Source: a virus
Taxonomy: Duplodnaviria; Heunggongvirae; Uroviricota; Caudoviricetes
Reading direction: 5' to 3' (one strand)
IMG/VR virus record: IMGVR_UViG_2737471848_000023
Location: 1 to 6,407 of that record
DNA length: 6,407 nucleotides
The notes beneath the pieces are model-generated. The model did no database searches and was not told the origin of the DNA. It saw only the letters and a program-made list of their open reading frames with translations. Shown here one piece after another: positions 1 to 6,407 of this stretch. The translations under genes were made by a program, and so were the position numbers. Each line of letters opens with the position of its first letter. Position 1 is the stretch's first letter.

Positions 1-153
1 GACGGATAACCACATCGTCGCCGTTCCGTCATCGGCCTGGCTGCACGGCAGGGGGATAGCCATACCCGCCATCGCCATTTGTGTACCCTTGCTGGTGGTC
101 TTTAACTGTGGGTCAGCCACCAGCCGCCCGTAAGCGGCTATCTGTGCTGTCAT
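1..153 (-). CDS. SSB-like OB-fold protein, N-terminal 51 codons only (gene continues beyond window start)
   Basis: ATG at 153..151 preceded by GGAGAGGTG; open to position 1 with no stop. Hand translation MTAQIAAYGRLVADPQLKTTSKGTQMAMAGMAI...TATMWLSV fits the N-terminal pattern of SSB-type OB folds (hydrophobic-G-R/N-L-x-x-D-P-x-L-R/K...T..G). Start overlaps the upstream stop as ATGA. Not in the ORF track because it is truncated. Confidence 0.5.
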   Translation of the reverse strand, partial: MTAQIAAYGRLVADPQLKTTSKGTQMAMAGMAIPLPCSQADDGTATMWLSV

Positions 154-464
154 GATTTCACCTCTCCGGTTTTAACGTTGATGGTTGTTACCTGTTCCGC
201 TTCGGCAATCTCCCGTTCTGTCAGCGTGGCAAAGTTTGCAGCTGCCGTTGTCATGAATGCGCTTATCAGGTCGGGATGTGCTTTCGCGTATCCTTCCCCC
301 GCATGGCGGTCTATCGTTCTGATTGCCACCTTTAAGGTATGCTCAGTCATGTCTAACGCTTTATATTTTGGCTCTGTTCTGTCTCTGCGAATTTTGGTCA
401 TTTGTCGCCCCTGATTCATGTTTTCGGCTGGCATGTTTGTTAAGTGATTTTGATGTATGCGCAT
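150..464 (-). CDS. hypothetical protein (104 aa)
   Basis: ORF from track; ATG at 464 preceded by GAGGGGGTG about 8 nt upstream; stop TGA at 152..150 overlaps next start (ATGA). No motif I recognise. Internal ATGs at 434, 419 and 401 are alternative starts. Confidence 0.55.
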   Translation of the reverse strand: MRIHQNHLTNMPAENMNQGRQMTKIRRDRTEPKYKALDMTEHTLKVAIRTIDRHAGEGYAKAHPDLISAFMTTAAANFATLTEREIAEAEQVTTINVKTGEVKS

Positions 465-510
465 TTATTTTCACCCCCTCGTTTAAAAAGTTTTTAGTTG
501 TGCCTCCCCC

Positions 511-736
511 CCCTCTACCCATCTACCCGAATGCTCATCATGTCAGTAATGGCGAGGCTTTCAGCGGGTAGATAGCTTTTGGGGCTCCTCTACCTGCCGT
601 CTACCCTGCTACCTGAAACTGATAAAATCAGGTAGAAGAGGTAGAGAGCTTTTATTAGCCTTCTACCTGGCCCTCTACCCACTTATCATGTTGAATAATA
701 TGTATTTATTTCATTCGGGTAGATGGGGTAGAGGGC
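511..736. repeat. iteron array, candidate replication origin
   Basis: At least 11 copies of the 6-bp core TCTACC / GGTAGA in both orientations: forward at 514, 522, 589, 600, 662, 674 (plus GCTACC at 608), reverse at 567, 631, 640, 718, 727. Adjacent same-orientation copies are 8-12 bp apart. An AT-rich segment (681..716) lies inside the array. Sits immediately 3' of the primase/helicase gene. Confidence 0.6.
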
Positions 737-748
737 TTTTACAAAAAA

Positions 749-2503
749 TTATAAAAACGCGTCGCAATCGTCTGTTGTAATTGCGTTGGTCTGCGTTACT
801 CCCTTAACTTTTCGCGTAATATATTCATGCCCGTAAACTTTCGCCGCTGGCTTCATGGCCTTGCTGAACTCAGCCACGTTTAGCGGTTTGCTCCTGCCTG
901 CGTATGCCATAAACGCCAGATAGACGCGGTAAAGGCTGTTCCTGGTCGTGTACTTCACTGAATCACCACCGCCACCCATCATCAGGCCGCGCGCTTCCTC
1001 CAGAAAATTCAGGAACTGGCAAAACTCAATAACCGGATCCGTCTGTTGCTTTATTGCCAGTGCTTCATCACCGTCACGCTGTTCCAGTAGTAAAGCCCTC
1101 GCCTTTTCAGGGTCGGTAAAGTTCGCCAGCAAGCGGCGGATAATCACAGGGATTTCAGCCGCGACCTTCTCCGGCAAATCCTTGTCCTTTTCTGCCTCGC
1201 TAACGATATTGTCAAAGCGAAAAATAACCCGACGACGTGCCACGCCTCCGGCCCGTTCGGTGAATATCATCGGGTTGTTGTTGGTCGCCAGCACCACCGC
1301 CCTGATTACCGCCGTGAAACGCTTTTCATATTTCGGGTTAATTTCCACGGGGTCGCCGCCCGTGATTTTCTTGATGCCCGTTCCTTCGCCTGTATATTTC
1401 GGCTGGTCAGCCAGGACGATAAGACGACTCCCGACAACCTGCGCGCGCCCTCCTGCATCATCGAGTGATGTCATCTCCGCGCTTACGGTGTTCTGTTTCC
1501 CTGCCAGAAGGCTGGCTATGTGTGTGAATGTACTTTTACCGCTCCCGCCGTCTCCGGTGGCCTCAATAAACATCTGCCAGTCGTACCGGTTCGCCATAAT
1601 CATGTACAGCGCGGCACATATACGCATCATCTTGCGCGGGTCTTTTCCGGCTGCGTGCTCAAGCCATTTATGAAAGTTTGGCGCGTTGTCGCGAATGTTC
1701 TCCCCTGGTGCTGGTGGCGTGTACTCAATGCCGTTGTGCGTGGTGATCCAGTTCTCCGGCGTGTGCGGGGAAAATTCCCCCGTTTTCAGGTCAAGCGCAC
1801 CATTGGCGAACGGCAGCAAATCGCCGGACGGCTCCCCCATTGGTTCGGCAATAACTTTTAACGCTTCAACGGCGTTATTGATCACGCGTTTGCTGAAAGT
1901 GGCCCTGTGCTCTGAATAGATCGCCACCATTTCGCGGCTAAGTTCCATTGTGCTGACCGGACACCATACCCCGCCGCGCCATACGTGAACGATTTCACTT
2001 TCCGGATGCACACAAACGCCATCAAATCGACCAGCAAGCATCTGTGCGCGTTCACTGTCCGCCATCTGCGAAAGTTGCGCCTTTTGCTTTACCGGAAGCT
2101 CAACGACCAGACCTTCAGAAAGATTCTGGCGCTCACGGGCCAGATATTCGCGCCAGTTCTCCACCTTCTGACCGTGCATTCCTTCGGGGTAAAATTTTGC
2201 ATCCTGTACGCCTGCCGCCGCCAGCTTCTGACCAATCTTTTTGGTCTCCACCAAGTCCAGTTCTCCTGCCTGGTACAGCCTTACGCGTTTTTTTCCATCA
2301 GGAACAATTTGCAGTGCATAAAGTTCGGCAAGCTGATTTGGCCCAAGCCACACAGGAGGCACATTATCGCCGGATGCGGGGCCGTCCTGCTCCTGCCACT
2401 GTTTTGCATGTGCCCACGCATCACTACCCGCGAAAATAATCACCTCTGTGTCTTTGTGTTTTATTCCGCGTGGCTGTTTTTTTACGTTCGGTGCCAGTTT
2501 CAT
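749..2503 (-). CDS. replication protein: primase/helicase with P-loop NTPase domain (584 aa)
   Basis: Long ORF with AGGGG 7 nt before the ATG at 2503. Walker A GDGGSGKST at about aa 317-325 (nt about 1529..1555) and Walker B-like LIVLAD at about aa 361-366, consistent with the SF3/P4-alpha/D5 family of phage-plasmid primase-helicases. N-terminal roughly 300 aa is a separate domain. Start overlaps the upstream stop (ATGA at 2503..2500). Confidence 0.9.
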   Translation of the reverse strand: MKLAPNVKKQPRGIKHKDTEVIIFAGSDAWAHAKQWQEQDGPASGDNVPPVWLGPNQLAELYALQIVPDGKKRVRLYQAGELDLVETKKIGQKLAAAGVQDAKFYPEGMHGQKVENWREYLARERQNLSEGLVVELPVKQKAQLSQMADSERAQMLAGRFDGVCVHPESEIVHVWRGGVWCPVSTMELSREMVAIYSEHRATFSKRVINNAVEALKVIAEPMGEPSGDLLPFANGALDLKTGEFSPHTPENWITTHNGIEYTPPAPGENIRDNAPNFHKWLEHAAGKDPRKMMRICAALYMIMANRYDWQMFIEATGDGGSGKSTFTHIASLLAGKQNTVSAEMTSLDDAGGRAQVVGSRLIVLADQPKYTGEGTGIKKITGGDPVEINPKYEKRFTAVIRAVVLATNNNPMIFTERAGGVARRRVIFRFDNIVSEAEKDKDLPEKVAAEIPVIIRRLLANFTDPEKARALLLEQRDGDEALAIKQQTDPVIEFCQFLNFLEEARGLMMGGGGDSVKYTTRNSLYRVYLAFMAYAGRSKPLNVAEFSKAMKPAAKVYGHEYITRKVKGVTQTNAITTDDCDAFL

Positions 2504-4549: not shown

Positions 4550-4759
4550 TTACGCTGCCTTACCTGCATTAATACGATCCCTGCTTTTAACCCATTCCAT
4601 AACCTCAGACTTAACCCAGCCAACAGAACGACCGCCGAGACTGATACGTGAGGGGAAGCGGCCCTGCTTTTCCATCTCGTAACGAGTTGTGCGGCAAACG
4701 CCTGTTAGCTCTCTGCATTCTTTTTCGCGGATTACACGATCTTCATTTATTTCGCGCAT
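4550..4759 (-). CDS. alpA: AlpA-family transcriptional regulator (69 aa)
   Basis: ORF from track; AGGA 6 nt upstream of ATG at 4759. Sequence VIREKECRELTGVCRTTRYEMEKQGRFPSRISLGGRSVGWVKSEVMEWVKSR matches the AlpA pattern (..TG.sr.T.Y......FP....LG.RsVGW...Ev.eWv..R). Lies directly downstream of int on the same strand. Confidence 0.9.
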   Translation of the reverse strand: MREINEDRVIREKECRELTGVCRTTRYEMEKQGRFPSRISLGGRSVGWVKSEVMEWVKSRDRINAGKAA

Positions 4760-5168: not shown

Positions 5169-6407
5169 TCAAGAATTTTGGGAGTAAATTCGCGGGGTCA
5201 TAACAACGATTTTTTCATCATTGTTCTGGAGAAGCTCGAGACGCTCACCCCATAGATTAAGAGCGTCACGTTTTGCATCAAGATAACGGGAGTGATTATA
5301 GACTCGTTGCATTCCTGGCAACTGGTGCGCGGTTAGCTGCTCCACTACATGAGGATCAACGCCTAAATCGTTCAGCATCGTTGTAAACGTGTGCCGGATG
5401 TCGTGCAACGTCCATGGGGCTTGATTAATGCGTCTGTGTGCCGTTCTTCCGTACTCTGATACGGATGATTGCCCTTTCAGTTCTCCGAGCAATAATCCCG
5501 TGTGCCTGTTCTGCTCCACCAGCTTCATGACAAACGGCAAGATCGCTTCCGGTATTGGCCTGAATATTGCTACCTTCGTTTTGCTGTGTTCTTTCGGCAC
5601 GGTCCAGAGCATTTCTTTAAAATCCCATTCCTGGACCTCAGAGCGTCTTAGCTCAGTGGTACGACATCCGAAGACAATCAGGAGGCGAATCAGGGCGCTG
5701 TAGTACGGTGGGTAAATTTTTTCATCAAGGGCGCGTAGTAATTCCCCAAGCTCCTTGTTTGTTAGTACGCGCTCGCTTATTTCTGCTTTTTTCCCAACAT
5801 CACCGACAACCATATCATCGAGAACGTTGGTAATTGCGTAGCGTCGTTTTCGGCAGTACTTAAGCGCCTGTTTGCACACCTGTAGCAAAAATCCGGCTGA
5901 TACCGGATTACGCTTAGCAAGCTGGTCAAAACAGGCCAGCCAGTGGCGTAGCTCGCATTTTTCCAGTGGCATAGCGCCAATCTGGCTAATTATGTGTTTA
6001 TTGATCCGGCTTTTCAGTGATTCGTAGTCAGTGCGCTTTTCCTTTGCGTACGATTCAAGCCAGTAAGTGAGAGCTTCCTTAACCGTCACGGGGGCTAAAG
6101 CGTCCTGTACAGCATGATTAAGTTCATAGCGCGGATTTTTCCCCTCAGCCAGCCAGGCGCGACACTGTGCCGCTTTTTCCCTGGCAGCTTTCAGGCTCAG
6201 ATCGGGATAATTGCCCAGCCTCAGACGTTCCGGTGATATCTGCCTACCAGTTCCGGCCCTGTAAGTGAAATACCAGGTTAACAGGCCATTGGTTGAATGC
6301 CTTACGCTAAGGTTGCCACCATCATTAAAAAAGGTGCTTTTTGTGGTTGGTGATCCGCTTAATTTTCGTAAAAGAGTGTCGCTAAGTCTATGAATTGCCC
6401 TGCTCAT
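5169..6407 (-). CDS. int: tyrosine site-specific integrase (412 aa)
   Basis: Full ORF with ATG at the last 3 nt of the window. N-terminal arm-type domain (NDGGNLSVRHSTNGLLTWYFTYR...RLRLGNYPDLSLKAARE). C-terminal catalytic region with HDIRHTFTTML (H-x-x-R) and the tyrosine region YNHSRY. Overall layout matches P4/CP4-type integrases. Confidence 0.95.
   Translation of the reverse strand: MSRAIHRLSDTLLRKLSGSPTTKSTFFNDGGNLSVRHSTNGLLTWYFTYRAGTGRQISPERLRLGNYPDLSLKAAREKAAQCRAWLAEGKNPRYELNHAVQDALAPVTVKEALTYWLESYAKEKRTDYESLKSRINKHIISQIGAMPLEKCELRHWLACFDQLAKRNPVSAGFLLQVCKQALKYCRKRRYAITNVLDDMVVGDVGKKAEISERVLTNKELGELLRALDEKIYPPYYSALIRLLIVFGCRTTELRRSEVQEWDFKEMLWTVPKEHSKTKVAIFRPIPEAILPFVMKLVEQNRHTGLLLGELKGQSSVSEYGRTAHRRINQAPWTLHDIRHTFTTMLNDLGVDPHVVEQLTAHQLPGMQRVYNHSRYLDAKRDALNLWGERLELLQNNDEKIVVMTPRIYSQNS

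What the first reader, a model, noticed from the sequence alone, without database searches (positions are those of the whole stretch)
503..748. Bi-orientation iteron array with an AT-rich core immediately 3' of the primase gene
Eleven or more TCTACC/GGTAGA cores are arranged in alternating same-orientation clusters at about helical-turn spacing around a 36-bp AT-rich segment (681..716). Reverse-orientation clusters are each followed by GCTTTT. This is the classic layout of an iteron origin bound by the adjacent initiator, as in P4 ori/crr and PICI origins, but the core sequence differs from the P4 iteron as I recall it, implying its own initiator specificity.
Basis: partly seen in the sequence, partly recalled or inferred. 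Interest (0 to 1): 0.5.

Follow-up and report, generated by a model that had tools for sequence, protein, structure and literature searches.

The report
Replication origin of an E. coli phage satellite
The repeat array is real and is almost certainly the replication origin of a phage-inducible chromosomal island, but this origin type was described in 2018 and a close relative was tested then, so it is an ordinary example.

Summary
Eleven exact TCTACC/GGTAGA hexamers plus one GCTACC variant all lie at 514-732 and nowhere else in the window (1.5 expected by chance). They form six clusters of alternating orientation with 8-12 bp spacing. An 81% AT segment at 681-716 lies between the two clusters nearest the gene.

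The neighbouring 584-aa protein is 93% identical to Pri-Rep of the E. coli island EcCICFT073. That island's downstream region corresponds to window ~440-745 and carries the same hexamer. Its deletion impaired plasmid maintenance in a published test (Fillol-Salom 2018). The protein's C-terminus matches the solved origin-binding domain of phage P4 alpha (1KA8).

Across about 90 relatives, every initiator at 69% identity or more carries 9-12 TCTACC downstream. More distant relatives carry TGTTCAC (the P4 type), GGTGTTCAT or GGTATACA at the same place. The repeat type follows the C-terminal domain, not the rest of the protein.

The array is the positional counterpart of P4 crr, but it is the only repeat cluster in the island.

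Verdict: correct, already known in kind, low interest. Two side leads remain: candidate residues that set repeat specificity, and a conserved box that is not an iteron.

The parts
749..2503 (-). Pri-Rep initiator/helicase, 584 aa. Domains: N-terminal domain of unknown function (aa 1-150), D5_N (153-282), SF3 helicase with Walker A GDGGSGKST (about 286-440), and a C-terminal winged-helix origin-binding domain (488-576).
   Evidence: Pfam D5_N 1e-14, DUF5906 5e-10, Pox_D5 3.5e-4. TIGR01613. PDB 7OLA and 1KA8. 93.0% identical to EcCICFT073 Pri-Rep.
776..1042 (-). Coding region for the origin-binding domain (aa 488-576), the inferred reader of the iterons.
   Evidence: phmmer hit to P4 alpha OBD 1KA8, E 8e-6. 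This is the domain whose divergence tracks iteron type.
718..732 (-). Iteron pair F (GGTAGA at 718 and 727). On the gene strand these are the first two forward iterons after the stop codon. Followed by GCTTTT.
680..717 (.). AT-rich spacer (81% AT over 681-716) between convergent iteron pairs. Inferred DNA-unwinding element.
   Evidence: dG -37.0 against a mean of -49.4, second least stable distinct 36-mer in the window. A spacer of about 35-40 bp holds the same position in CFT073, Serratia, Morganella and P4 crr.
662..679 (+). Iteron pair E (TCTACC at 662 and 674).
631..645 (-). Iteron pair D (GGTAGA at 631 and 640, followed by GCTTTT).
589..613 (+). Iteron triplet C (TCTACC at 589 and 600; variant GCTACC at 608).
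567..572 (-). Single iteron B (GGTAGA, followed by TAGCTTTT).
544..564 (.). Conserved box that is not an iteron, CAGTAATGGCGAGGCTTTCAG, in the spacer of the last module. Function unknown.
   Evidence: Nearly invariant in the alignments. CATTACTG is present in 60 of 66 TCTACC-type origins and in two TGTTCAC-type origins.
514..527 (+). Iteron pair A (TCTACC at 514 and 522), preceded by a run of eight C at 505-512.
481..495 (.). Conserved GTTTAAAAAGTTTTT motif (AAAACTTTTT on the gene strand) just beyond the last iteron pair. It marks the distal edge of the conserved origin.
   Evidence: Invariant in the E. coli alignment. Present in 65 of 66 TCTACC-type origins, in Morganella and in both P4 crr repeats.
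150..464 (-). First gene downstream of the origin (PHROG 1231, unknown function). ATG at 464 with the Shine-Dalgarno sequence GAGGGGG.
   Evidence: Followed by ssb in related islands.

Best explanation
The array at about 481-748 is the vegetative replication origin of an E. coli phage-inducible chromosomal island (PICI). It has the same type as the EcCICFT073 origin.

The neighbouring 584-aa Pri-Rep protein is a self-loading SF3 helicase that also acts as initiator. Its C-terminal winged-helix domain reads the roughly 10-bp iteron (S)CCnTCTACCY. Protomers occupy the iterons, which are arranged as three convergent modules. Those bound on the pair of inverted iteron doublets (662-679 and 718-732) flank the 38-bp AT-rich spacer. 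They melt it and thread the helicase onto single strands. The host replisome then copies the excised circle.

Shown here: the repeats, their conservation, and their exclusivity to this spot. Also shown: the homology of the protein to a tested initiator and to a solved origin-binding domain, and the co-variation of iteron type with that domain. Shown in the literature for a 93%-identical homologue: the gene plus this downstream region maintain a plasmid, and deleting the region impairs that. Inferred by analogy with SaPI Rep and P4 alpha: direct binding, melting at the AT-rich spacer, and hexamer loading.
For: Repeats are clustered and exclusive: 11 of 11 hexamers lie within 219 bp, with 1.5 expected.

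TCTACC is the top strand-collapsed 6-mer (9-12 copies) downstream of the gene in all 8 E. coli/Shigella genomic loci. The same holds in all 64 viral-contig relatives at 69% protein identity or more. This is despite origin DNA identities as low as 62% between sub-groups.

There is one cluster per island. In the three islands counted, no second cluster was seen, only a single stray hexamer each in RM12581 and CFT073.

The initiator is 93.0% identical to EcCICFT073 Pri-Rep. The published pri-ori and pri-delta-ori constructs differ by exactly the region homologous to window ~440-745. I mapped the primers. The text and legends are, and the primer table, all from PMC6092414.

The C-terminus matches the P4 alpha OBD 1KA8, and the helicase matches SaPI5 PriRep 7OLA.

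Iteron type follows the OBD. L072/L074 (TCTACC) and L078 (TGTTCAC) share a 93-96% identical N-domain but only 33% in the OBD. The L078 OBD is 76% identical to that of Serratia, which is also TGTTCAC. L080-type (GGTGTTCAT) and L084-type (GGTATACA) proteins have only three fixed differences. Two of them, aa 559 and 562, lie in the OBD, and the third is the C-terminal residue.

The layout, stop codon then two forward iterons, an AT-rich spacer of about 36-40 bp, then reverse iterons, is shared with CFT073, Serratia, Morganella and P4 crr. It also matches the SaPI ori rule described in PMC9371898: 6-12 iterons immediately 3' of rep, with at least two on each side of an AT-rich region pointing in opposite directions.

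There are no DnaA, IHF or GATC motifs, which fits a host-initiator-independent origin.
Against: No experiment exists on this exact sequence. Binding, melting and the start site are inferred.

The AT-rich spacer is only the second least stable segment of the window, and it is eccentric within the array.

In P4, the positionally equivalent site (crr) is an accessory cis site, not the start site.

An alignment-based conservation test was weak: iteron columns 0.79 against 0.67 for other columns, and 602 of 10000 random placements matched the observed value. This is partly because indels misaligned one iteron.

The relatives are phylogenetically non-independent.
Confidence: 0.9

Rival explanations
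1. The array is a crr-like accessory site. The initiator binds it and it is needed in cis (for looping, copy control or handcuffing), but replication actually starts elsewhere, as in phage P4.
For: It occupies exactly the position of P4 crr, immediately 3' of the alpha-type gene. It shares the pattern of forward and reverse iterons around a spacer, followed by the AAAACTTTTT motif.
Against: No second iteron cluster exists in the window or in the three whole islands examined. In EcCICFT073, the gene plus this one downstream region sufficed for plasmid maintenance (PMC6092414).
Confidence: 0.05
2. The inverted repeats encode a structured RNA or attenuator in the pri-rep transcript. This would control read-through into the downstream genes.
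For: The 251-nt transcript folds at -105 kcal/mol with z = -6.8. RNAalifold reports 14 pairs with changes on both sides. There are weak miRNA-hairpin hits in Rfam.
Against: The 'compensatory' changes are concerted changes of the iteron flank. They occur in direct as well as inverted copies: C at -2 against T at -2, by lineage. The number and orientation of copies per module vary among relatives, for example two forward and one reverse against two forward and two reverse, which breaks the pairing while keeping the motif. No terminator-like site was found. The Rfam hits fall below the gathering score. More distant relatives replace the motif as a whole.
Confidence: 0.03
3. The array is mainly a transcriptional operator bound by Pri-Rep or another island protein. 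It would regulate the downstream morphogenesis/interference operon and would not be an origin.
For: It lies between two co-directional genes, 40 bp upstream of a strong ribosome-binding site. Iteron-binding initiators often also autoregulate (established knowledge of iteron plasmids).
Against: No sigma-70-like promoter was found in 300-900. The homologous region is required for replication in EcCICFT073. A regulatory role could coexist with origin function but does not replace it.
Confidence: 0.04
4. The array is a packaging (cos/pac) site or an integrase arm-site cluster.
For: Both kinds of site consist of short repeated protein-binding motifs in mixed orientation.
Against: There is no cosN (GGGCGGCGACCT) in the window. 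The two functional cos sites of EcCICFT073 map 3.3-4 kb downstream of its origin (PMC6092414 supplementary figure S5). The array is 4.4 kb from int and is not at an island end.
Confidence: 0.01

Closest known systems
EcCICFT073 pri-rep/ori replicon (Gram-negative PICI origins; Fillol-Salom et al. 2018, ISME J, PMC6092414)
   Same: Same position, immediately 3' of pri-rep. Same TCTACC hexamer with 11 copies. Same three-module convergent layout with an AT-rich spacer next to the gene. The initiator is 93% identical. The island context is the same: int, an AlpA-like regulator, an Icd-like gene, DUF4222, pri-rep, ori, a small ORF and ssb.
   Different: Origin DNA is only 66.5-73% identical. Cluster D has 2 rather than 3 copies, and cluster E has 2 rather than 1. 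The iteron flank is C at -2 rather than T at -2. The closest genomic match (RM12581) sits at a different attachment site (clpS/cspD) and carries a protease-capsid fusion gene and no cosN.
Phage P4 crr and ori with alpha protein (NC_001609 annotation; OBD structure 1KA8)
   Same: An alpha-type SF3 helicase with a homologous C-terminal origin-binding domain. An iteron cluster lies immediately 3' of the gene, with two forward iterons, a spacer of about 35 bp and two reverse iterons, then an AAAACTTTTT motif.
   Different: The iteron is TGTTCACC, not TCTACC. The OBD is only about 30% identical. P4 needs two separated sites (ori at 9.1-9.8 kb and crr at 4.3-4.6 kb), whereas this island has one. P4 alpha has an N-terminal zinc-finger/Toprim primase region that is absent here.
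SaPI origins and Rep/PriRep self-loading helicases (PMC9371898)
   Same: Short 5-6 nt iterons, 6-12 copies, immediately downstream of rep. An AT-rich region is flanked by at least two iterons on each side in opposite orientation. An SF3 helicase with a C-terminal winged-helix domain binds the iterons without ATP. The helicase core is homologous (7OLA, E 4.5e-15).
   Different: Different host phylum. No detectable sequence similarity in the origin. Here the AT-rich spacer is short (38 bp) and eccentric, with two further iteron modules beyond it.
Iteron plasmid origins (F, R6K, pPS10, RK2)
   Same: Initiator-binding repeats next to an AT-rich unwinding element.
   Different: Those iterons are 17-22 bp and are tandem in one orientation. 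They work with DnaA boxes and the host DnaB/DnaC. Here the repeats have a 6-10 bp core in both orientations, there is no DnaA box, and the initiator is itself the helicase.

Membership tests
Gram-negative PICI origin (EcCICFT073 type) | Origin lies immediately 3' of the pri-rep gene. | tested here: met
   The stop codon is at 749-751 and the first iteron at 727-732.
Gram-negative PICI origin (EcCICFT073 type) | Sets of iterons flank an AT-rich region. | tested here: met
   Pairs at 662/674 (+) and 718/727 (-) flank an 81% AT spacer.
Gram-negative PICI origin (EcCICFT073 type) | Initiator is homologous to a validated PICI Pri-Rep. | tested here: met
   93.0% identity over 584 aa to the CFT073 protein.
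Gram-negative PICI origin (EcCICFT073 type) | Origin DNA is homologous to the tested EcCICFT073 ori fragment. | tested here: met
   66.5-73% identity over about 290 nt, with the same hexamer and module order. The fragment limits come from the published primers.
Gram-negative PICI origin (EcCICFT073 type) | PICI gene context: int and an AlpA-type activator, all transcribed one way, with no phage structural set. | tested here: met
   int at 5169-6407. An AlpA-like gene at 4550-4759 (PHROG 2790 and 66). All on the minus strand. The full island context comes from L001.
Gram-negative PICI origin (EcCICFT073 type) | Supports Pri-Rep-dependent autonomous replication. | not testable with these tools
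   Shown only for the CFT073 homologue (PMC6092414).
Phage P4 ori/crr | Type 1 iteron TGTTCACC. | tested here: not met
   No TGTTCA in 465-748, and no TCTACC in P4.
Phage P4 ori/crr | Two separated cis sites (ori and crr), both carrying iterons. | tested here: not met
   A single cluster in the window and in the three whole islands.
Phage P4 ori/crr | Alpha-type initiator with a C-terminal origin-binding winged-helix domain. | tested here: met
   1KA8 hit at E 8e-6 over aa 488-576, with about 30% identity.
Phage P4 ori/crr | N-terminal zinc-finger/Toprim primase domain in the initiator. | tested here: not met
   The region is absent. The 150-aa N-domain has no Pfam, NCBIfam or PDB match and does not align with the Toprim E and DxD motifs.
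SaPI-type origin | 6-12 short iterons 3' of rep, with at least two on each side of an AT-rich region in opposite orientation. | tested here: met
   12 copies. Two on each side of 680-717, convergent on the gene strand. Rule as stated in PMC9371898.
Classical iteron plasmid origin | Tandem 17-22 bp direct repeats plus DnaA boxes. | tested here: not met
   The repeats are short and lie in both orientations. There is no DnaA box with one mismatch or fewer.

The most novel reading that the evidence does not exclude
The P4-alpha/PICI Pri-Rep family carries exchangeable cassettes of origin-binding domain plus iteron. Specificity would be set by a few residues in the segment aligned to window TRKVKGVTQTN.

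Two natural near-isogenic initiator groups differ at only three fixed positions. Two of these (aa 559 and 562) lie in that segment. Their origins have switched from GGTGTTCAT to GGTATACA. Within the TCTACC class, the -2 flank (C against T) also tracks OBD residues (A..S against N..G).

In addition, a conserved 21-bp box that is not an iteron (544-564) is shared by origins of different iteron specificity. This would mark a second, unidentified factor or a priming site.
Probability: 0.35. Interest if true: 0.4.

Novelty: already known. Interest (0 to 1): 0.2.

Why it matters
As an origin it adds little. It is one more copy of a replicon type found in about 10% of complete E. coli genomes (544 of 5426), and a near-identical relative has already been tested.

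Its practical value is for annotation. The intergenic region 481-748 can be labelled rep_origin, and the 'DNA primase family protein' can be labelled a Pri-Rep initiator/helicase.

The comparative by-product may be more useful. It is a set of natural initiator/iteron pairs: TCTACC, TGTTCAC, GGTGTTCAT and GGTATACA. Domain swaps and a two-residue switch among them point to the specificity determinants of this winged-helix family. They could guide orthogonal replicon design, or predict which co-resident satellites cross-activate each other.

Tried and rejected
1. The Rfam scan gave only sub-threshold miRNA-hairpin hits at 656-737, caused by the inverted iterons. Rejected.

2. The promoter/terminator scan of 300-900 found nothing.

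3. The column-wise conservation test on a global alignment of 8 origins was weak. Permutation gave 602 of 10000, because indels misaligned iteron A and because cluster E differs between sub-groups. I replaced it with alignment-free k-mer counts.

4. The genome-contig scan with the single protein returned only 3 loci. The viral-contig scan with an alignment was far more informative.

5. Two 30-50 kb fetches of CFT073 missed the island. It was found on the third try.

6. A single-sequence AlphaFold model of the 584-aa protein was unusable (pLDDT 38.7). No fold search was run on it.

7. A profile search of the N-terminal domain against PDB sequences gave only non-significant hits (Cas2, E 0.1).

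8. Literature searches for P4 crr and alpha returned nothing useful. P4 facts rest on the GenBank annotation and on memory.

9. The homologous-protein search returned only relatives at 95% identity or more. It gave no help with diversity.

10. DnaA, IHF and GATC motif scans were negative.

Full report
**Observation**

The window carries 11 exact TCTACC/GGTAGA hexamers. All lie between 514 and 732, and none lies in the remaining 6.2 kb. Shuffles predict 1.5, and none of 200 reaches 11. A twelfth copy, GCTACC, sits at 608.

On the plus strand the copies form six clusters of alternating orientation:
- 514 and 522 (+)
- 567 (-)
- 589, 600 and 608 (+)
- 631 and 640 (-)
- 662 and 674 (+)
- 718 and 727 (-)

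Spacing within clusters is 8-12 bp.

Segment 681-716 is 81% A+T. It is the second least stable distinct 36-mer of the window, at dG -37.0 against a mean of -49.4 (sd 3.9). The three minus-orientation clusters are each followed by nnGCTTTT.

All genes in the window are on the minus strand. The 584-aa gene (749-2503) ends 16 nt before the first iteron. With flanks included, the repeat is about 10 bp, (S)CCnTCTACCY.

The AT-rich segment is eccentric: it lies between the two clusters nearest the gene. The conserved region also runs further, to about 481.

**What the element is**

The array and its flanks are 100% identical to a chromosomal island of E. coli O145:H28 RM12581/RM13514, located between clpS and cspD. 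That island carries:
- an integrase
- a helix-turn-helix regulator
- an Icd-like gene and DUF4222
- the 'DNA primase family protein'
- a small ORF and ssb
- a protease-capsid fusion gene

In the window, 4550-4759 encodes an AlpA/excisionase-type regulator (PHROG 2790). This is the gene layout of Gram-negative phage-inducible chromosomal islands (PICIs), as described by Fillol-Salom et al. 2018 (PMC6092414).

That paper states that the region immediately 3' of the replication initiator gene is the origin. [quoted passage not shown] It reports that an EcCICFT073 pri-ori plasmid is maintained at the restrictive temperature. A rep mutant is not, and deleting the ori significantly reduces colony numbers.

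**Link to the tested origin**

I located EcCICFT073 in the CFT073 chromosome (L009). I then mapped the published primers. The delta-ori construct ends at the pri stop codon. The ori-containing construct extends about 300 nt further, into the start of the next ORF. That segment corresponds to window ~440-745.

The CFT073 Pri-Rep is 93.0% identical to the window protein. Its origin carries 11 TCTACC copies in the same module order. The origin DNA overall is only 66.5-73% identical. The finding is thus a diverged copy of an origin that has been tested experimentally.

**The initiator**

Pfam finds D5_N, DUF5906 (SF3 helicase P-loop) and Pox_D5. Against solved structures:
- aa 195-432 match the SaPI5 PriRep helicase (7OLA, E 4.5e-15)
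- aa 488-576 match the P4 alpha origin-binding domain (1KA8, E 8e-6)

For SaPI Reps, the literature describes a self-loading SF3 helicase. Its C-terminal winged-helix domain recognises 5-6 nt iterons. Six to twelve iterons lie directly downstream of rep, with at least two on each side of an AT-rich region in opposite orientation. Binding and melting need no ATP (PMC9371898). The window array meets that description.

**Comparative test of specificity**

TCTACC is the most frequent strand-collapsed 6-mer (9-12 copies) in the 330 nt downstream of the gene in two sets of relatives. The first is all eight E. coli/Shigella genomic loci. The second is all 64 viral-contig relatives whose protein is 69-97% identical.

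Relatives at 51-55% identity carry a different repeat at the same place and in the same arrangement of both orientations:
- ACTGTTCAC in Serratia aquatilis and in L078/79. This is the P4 type 1 iteron, TGTTCACC in the P4 GenBank record.
- GGTGTTCAT in Morganella and the L080 group.
- GGTATACA in the L084 group.

Domain-wise identities show that the repeat type follows the C-terminal domain. L072/L074 (TCTACC) and L078 (TGTTCAC) share a 93-96% identical N-domain but only 33% in the OBD. The L078 OBD is 76% identical to the Serratia one, which has the same iteron.

The L080 and L084 groups have only three fixed differences. Two are aa 559 and 562 in the OBD, and the third is the last residue. 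Yet their iterons differ at two core positions.

Within the TCTACC class, the base at -2 (C or T) changes in a concerted way in direct and inverted copies alike. It tracks OBD residues, with one exception among 69 loci.

These relatives are not phylogenetically independent. Even so, the pattern of domain swaps is what an initiator/iteron recognition pair predicts.

**Relation to P4**

Viewed on the gene strand, the window, CFT073, Serratia, Morganella and P4 crr share one plan:
- the stop codon
- two forward iterons
- an AT-rich spacer of 35-40 bp
- reverse iterons
- further convergent modules
- a final reverse pair followed by AAAACTTTTT

The array is thus the positional and architectural counterpart of P4 crr, which lies immediately 3' of alpha. 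P4 also has a separate ori 4.5 kb away. The PICI islands have no second cluster of hexamers. In EcCICFT073 the single site sufficed for maintenance. I therefore place the array as a single-site origin of the PICI type, related to P4 crr but not a member of the P4 ori/crr system. The iteron differs, there is no second site, and there is no alpha-type primase domain.

**Rival readings**

*Structured RNA.* The transcript of the array folds strongly (z = -6.8), and RNAalifold reports two-sided changes. These are explained by concerted change of the repeat flank in all copies, direct ones included. Copy number and orientation per module also vary among relatives in ways that break pairing. There is no terminator or promoter consensus, no real Rfam match, and no cosN. 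There are no DnaA, IHF or GATC motifs either.

*Integrase arm sites.* This is excluded by the position of the array, 4.4 kb from int.

*Operator.* A regulatory role in addition to origin function cannot be excluded.

**What remains uncertain**

Binding, melting and the start point have not been measured for this sequence.

The 'primase' label is unsupported. The N-terminal 150 aa match no Pfam, NCBIfam or PDB sequence. They do not align with the zinc-finger or the Toprim E and DxD motifs of P4 alpha. The single-sequence structure model was unusable.

Two conserved elements that are not iterons are unexplained: the box at 544-564 and the motif at 481-495.

**Verdict**

The feature belongs to a published, experimentally anchored kind and is common: 544 of 5426 complete E. 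coli genomes, with up to four copies per genome. I rate it as already known, with interest 0.2.

The only parts with some novelty are comparative. They are the apparent exchange of OBD and iteron as a unit, the candidate specificity residues, and the conserved box.

Noticed in passing
window 544-564: A 21-bp box that is not an iteron, CAGTAATGGCGAGGCTTTCAG, lies in the spacer of the distal module. It is more conserved than the iteron flanks. CATTACTG is present in 60 of 66 TCTACC-type origins and in two TGTTCAC-type origins (L078/79). It is absent from L072-75, L080-93, Serratia, Morganella and P4 crr. Function unknown.
   Followed up: partly
window 481-495: The motif GTTTAAAAAGTTTTT (AAAACTTTTT on the gene strand) lies just beyond the last iteron pair. 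It is conserved in 65 of 66 TCTACC-type origins, in Morganella and in both 120-bp repeats of P4 crr.
   Followed up: partly
window 2054-2503 (aa 1-150 of the 584-aa protein): The N-terminal domain has no Pfam, NCBIfam or PDB sequence match (PHROG 2850, unknown function). It lacks the zinc-finger and the Toprim E/DxD motifs of P4 alpha. It is also the most variable part among E. coli relatives (60-80% identity). The 'primase' annotation rests on the helicase-associated TIGR01613 region only.
   Followed up: partly
L080-L093 (viral contigs), proteins of 587 aa and the 330 nt downstream: Two near-isogenic initiator groups have only three fixed differences: aa 559 (T against A/N), aa 562 (V against M) and the last residue. 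Their origins carry GGTGTTCAT in one group and GGTATACA in the other, at the same positions. This looks like a natural specificity switch.
   Followed up: partly
window 776-1042 (OBD) and the iteron flanks at 512-734: Within the TCTACC class, the base two positions 5' of the hexamer is C in lineages whose OBD reads NVA[ED]FSKAM. It is T in lineages whose OBD reads VN[DE]FGKAM. There is one exception (L027) among 69 loci. The change is concerted across direct and inverted copies.
   Followed up: partly
L072-L075, L078, L079 (330 nt downstream of the gene): The origin modules are in a permuted order relative to the gene. The module carrying AAAACTTTTT comes first, and the AT-rich module lies about 200 nt from the stop codon. 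L072-75 are TCTACC-type, and L078/79 are TGTTCAC-type with a nearly identical N-domain. This suggests recombination within the gene.
   Followed up: no
window 505-512: A run of eight C directly abuts the first iteron. Its length and sequence vary among relatives (CCCC, CACC and others).
   Followed up: no
window 150-464: The start of the first gene after the origin is ambiguous. ATG 464 has a strong, conserved Shine-Dalgarno sequence (GAGGGGG) and equals the annotated start in CFT073. RefSeq starts the RM12581 gene at the position equivalent to 401, and PHROG 1231 matches only aa 22-103.
   Followed up: no
E. coli genome collection; L001: Origins of this type occur in 544 of 5426 complete E. 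coli genomes, with up to four per genome. Co-resident islands would then share one iteron specificity. The RM12581 island that matches the window best has an ssb pseudogene, a ClpP-protease/capsid fusion gene and no cosN, unlike EcCICFT073.
   Followed up: no
49 distinct TCTACC-type origins: The start-to-start spacing of adjacent same-orientation iterons is 8, 9, 11 or 12 bp (46, 110, 74 and 14 cases). It is never 10.
   Followed up: no
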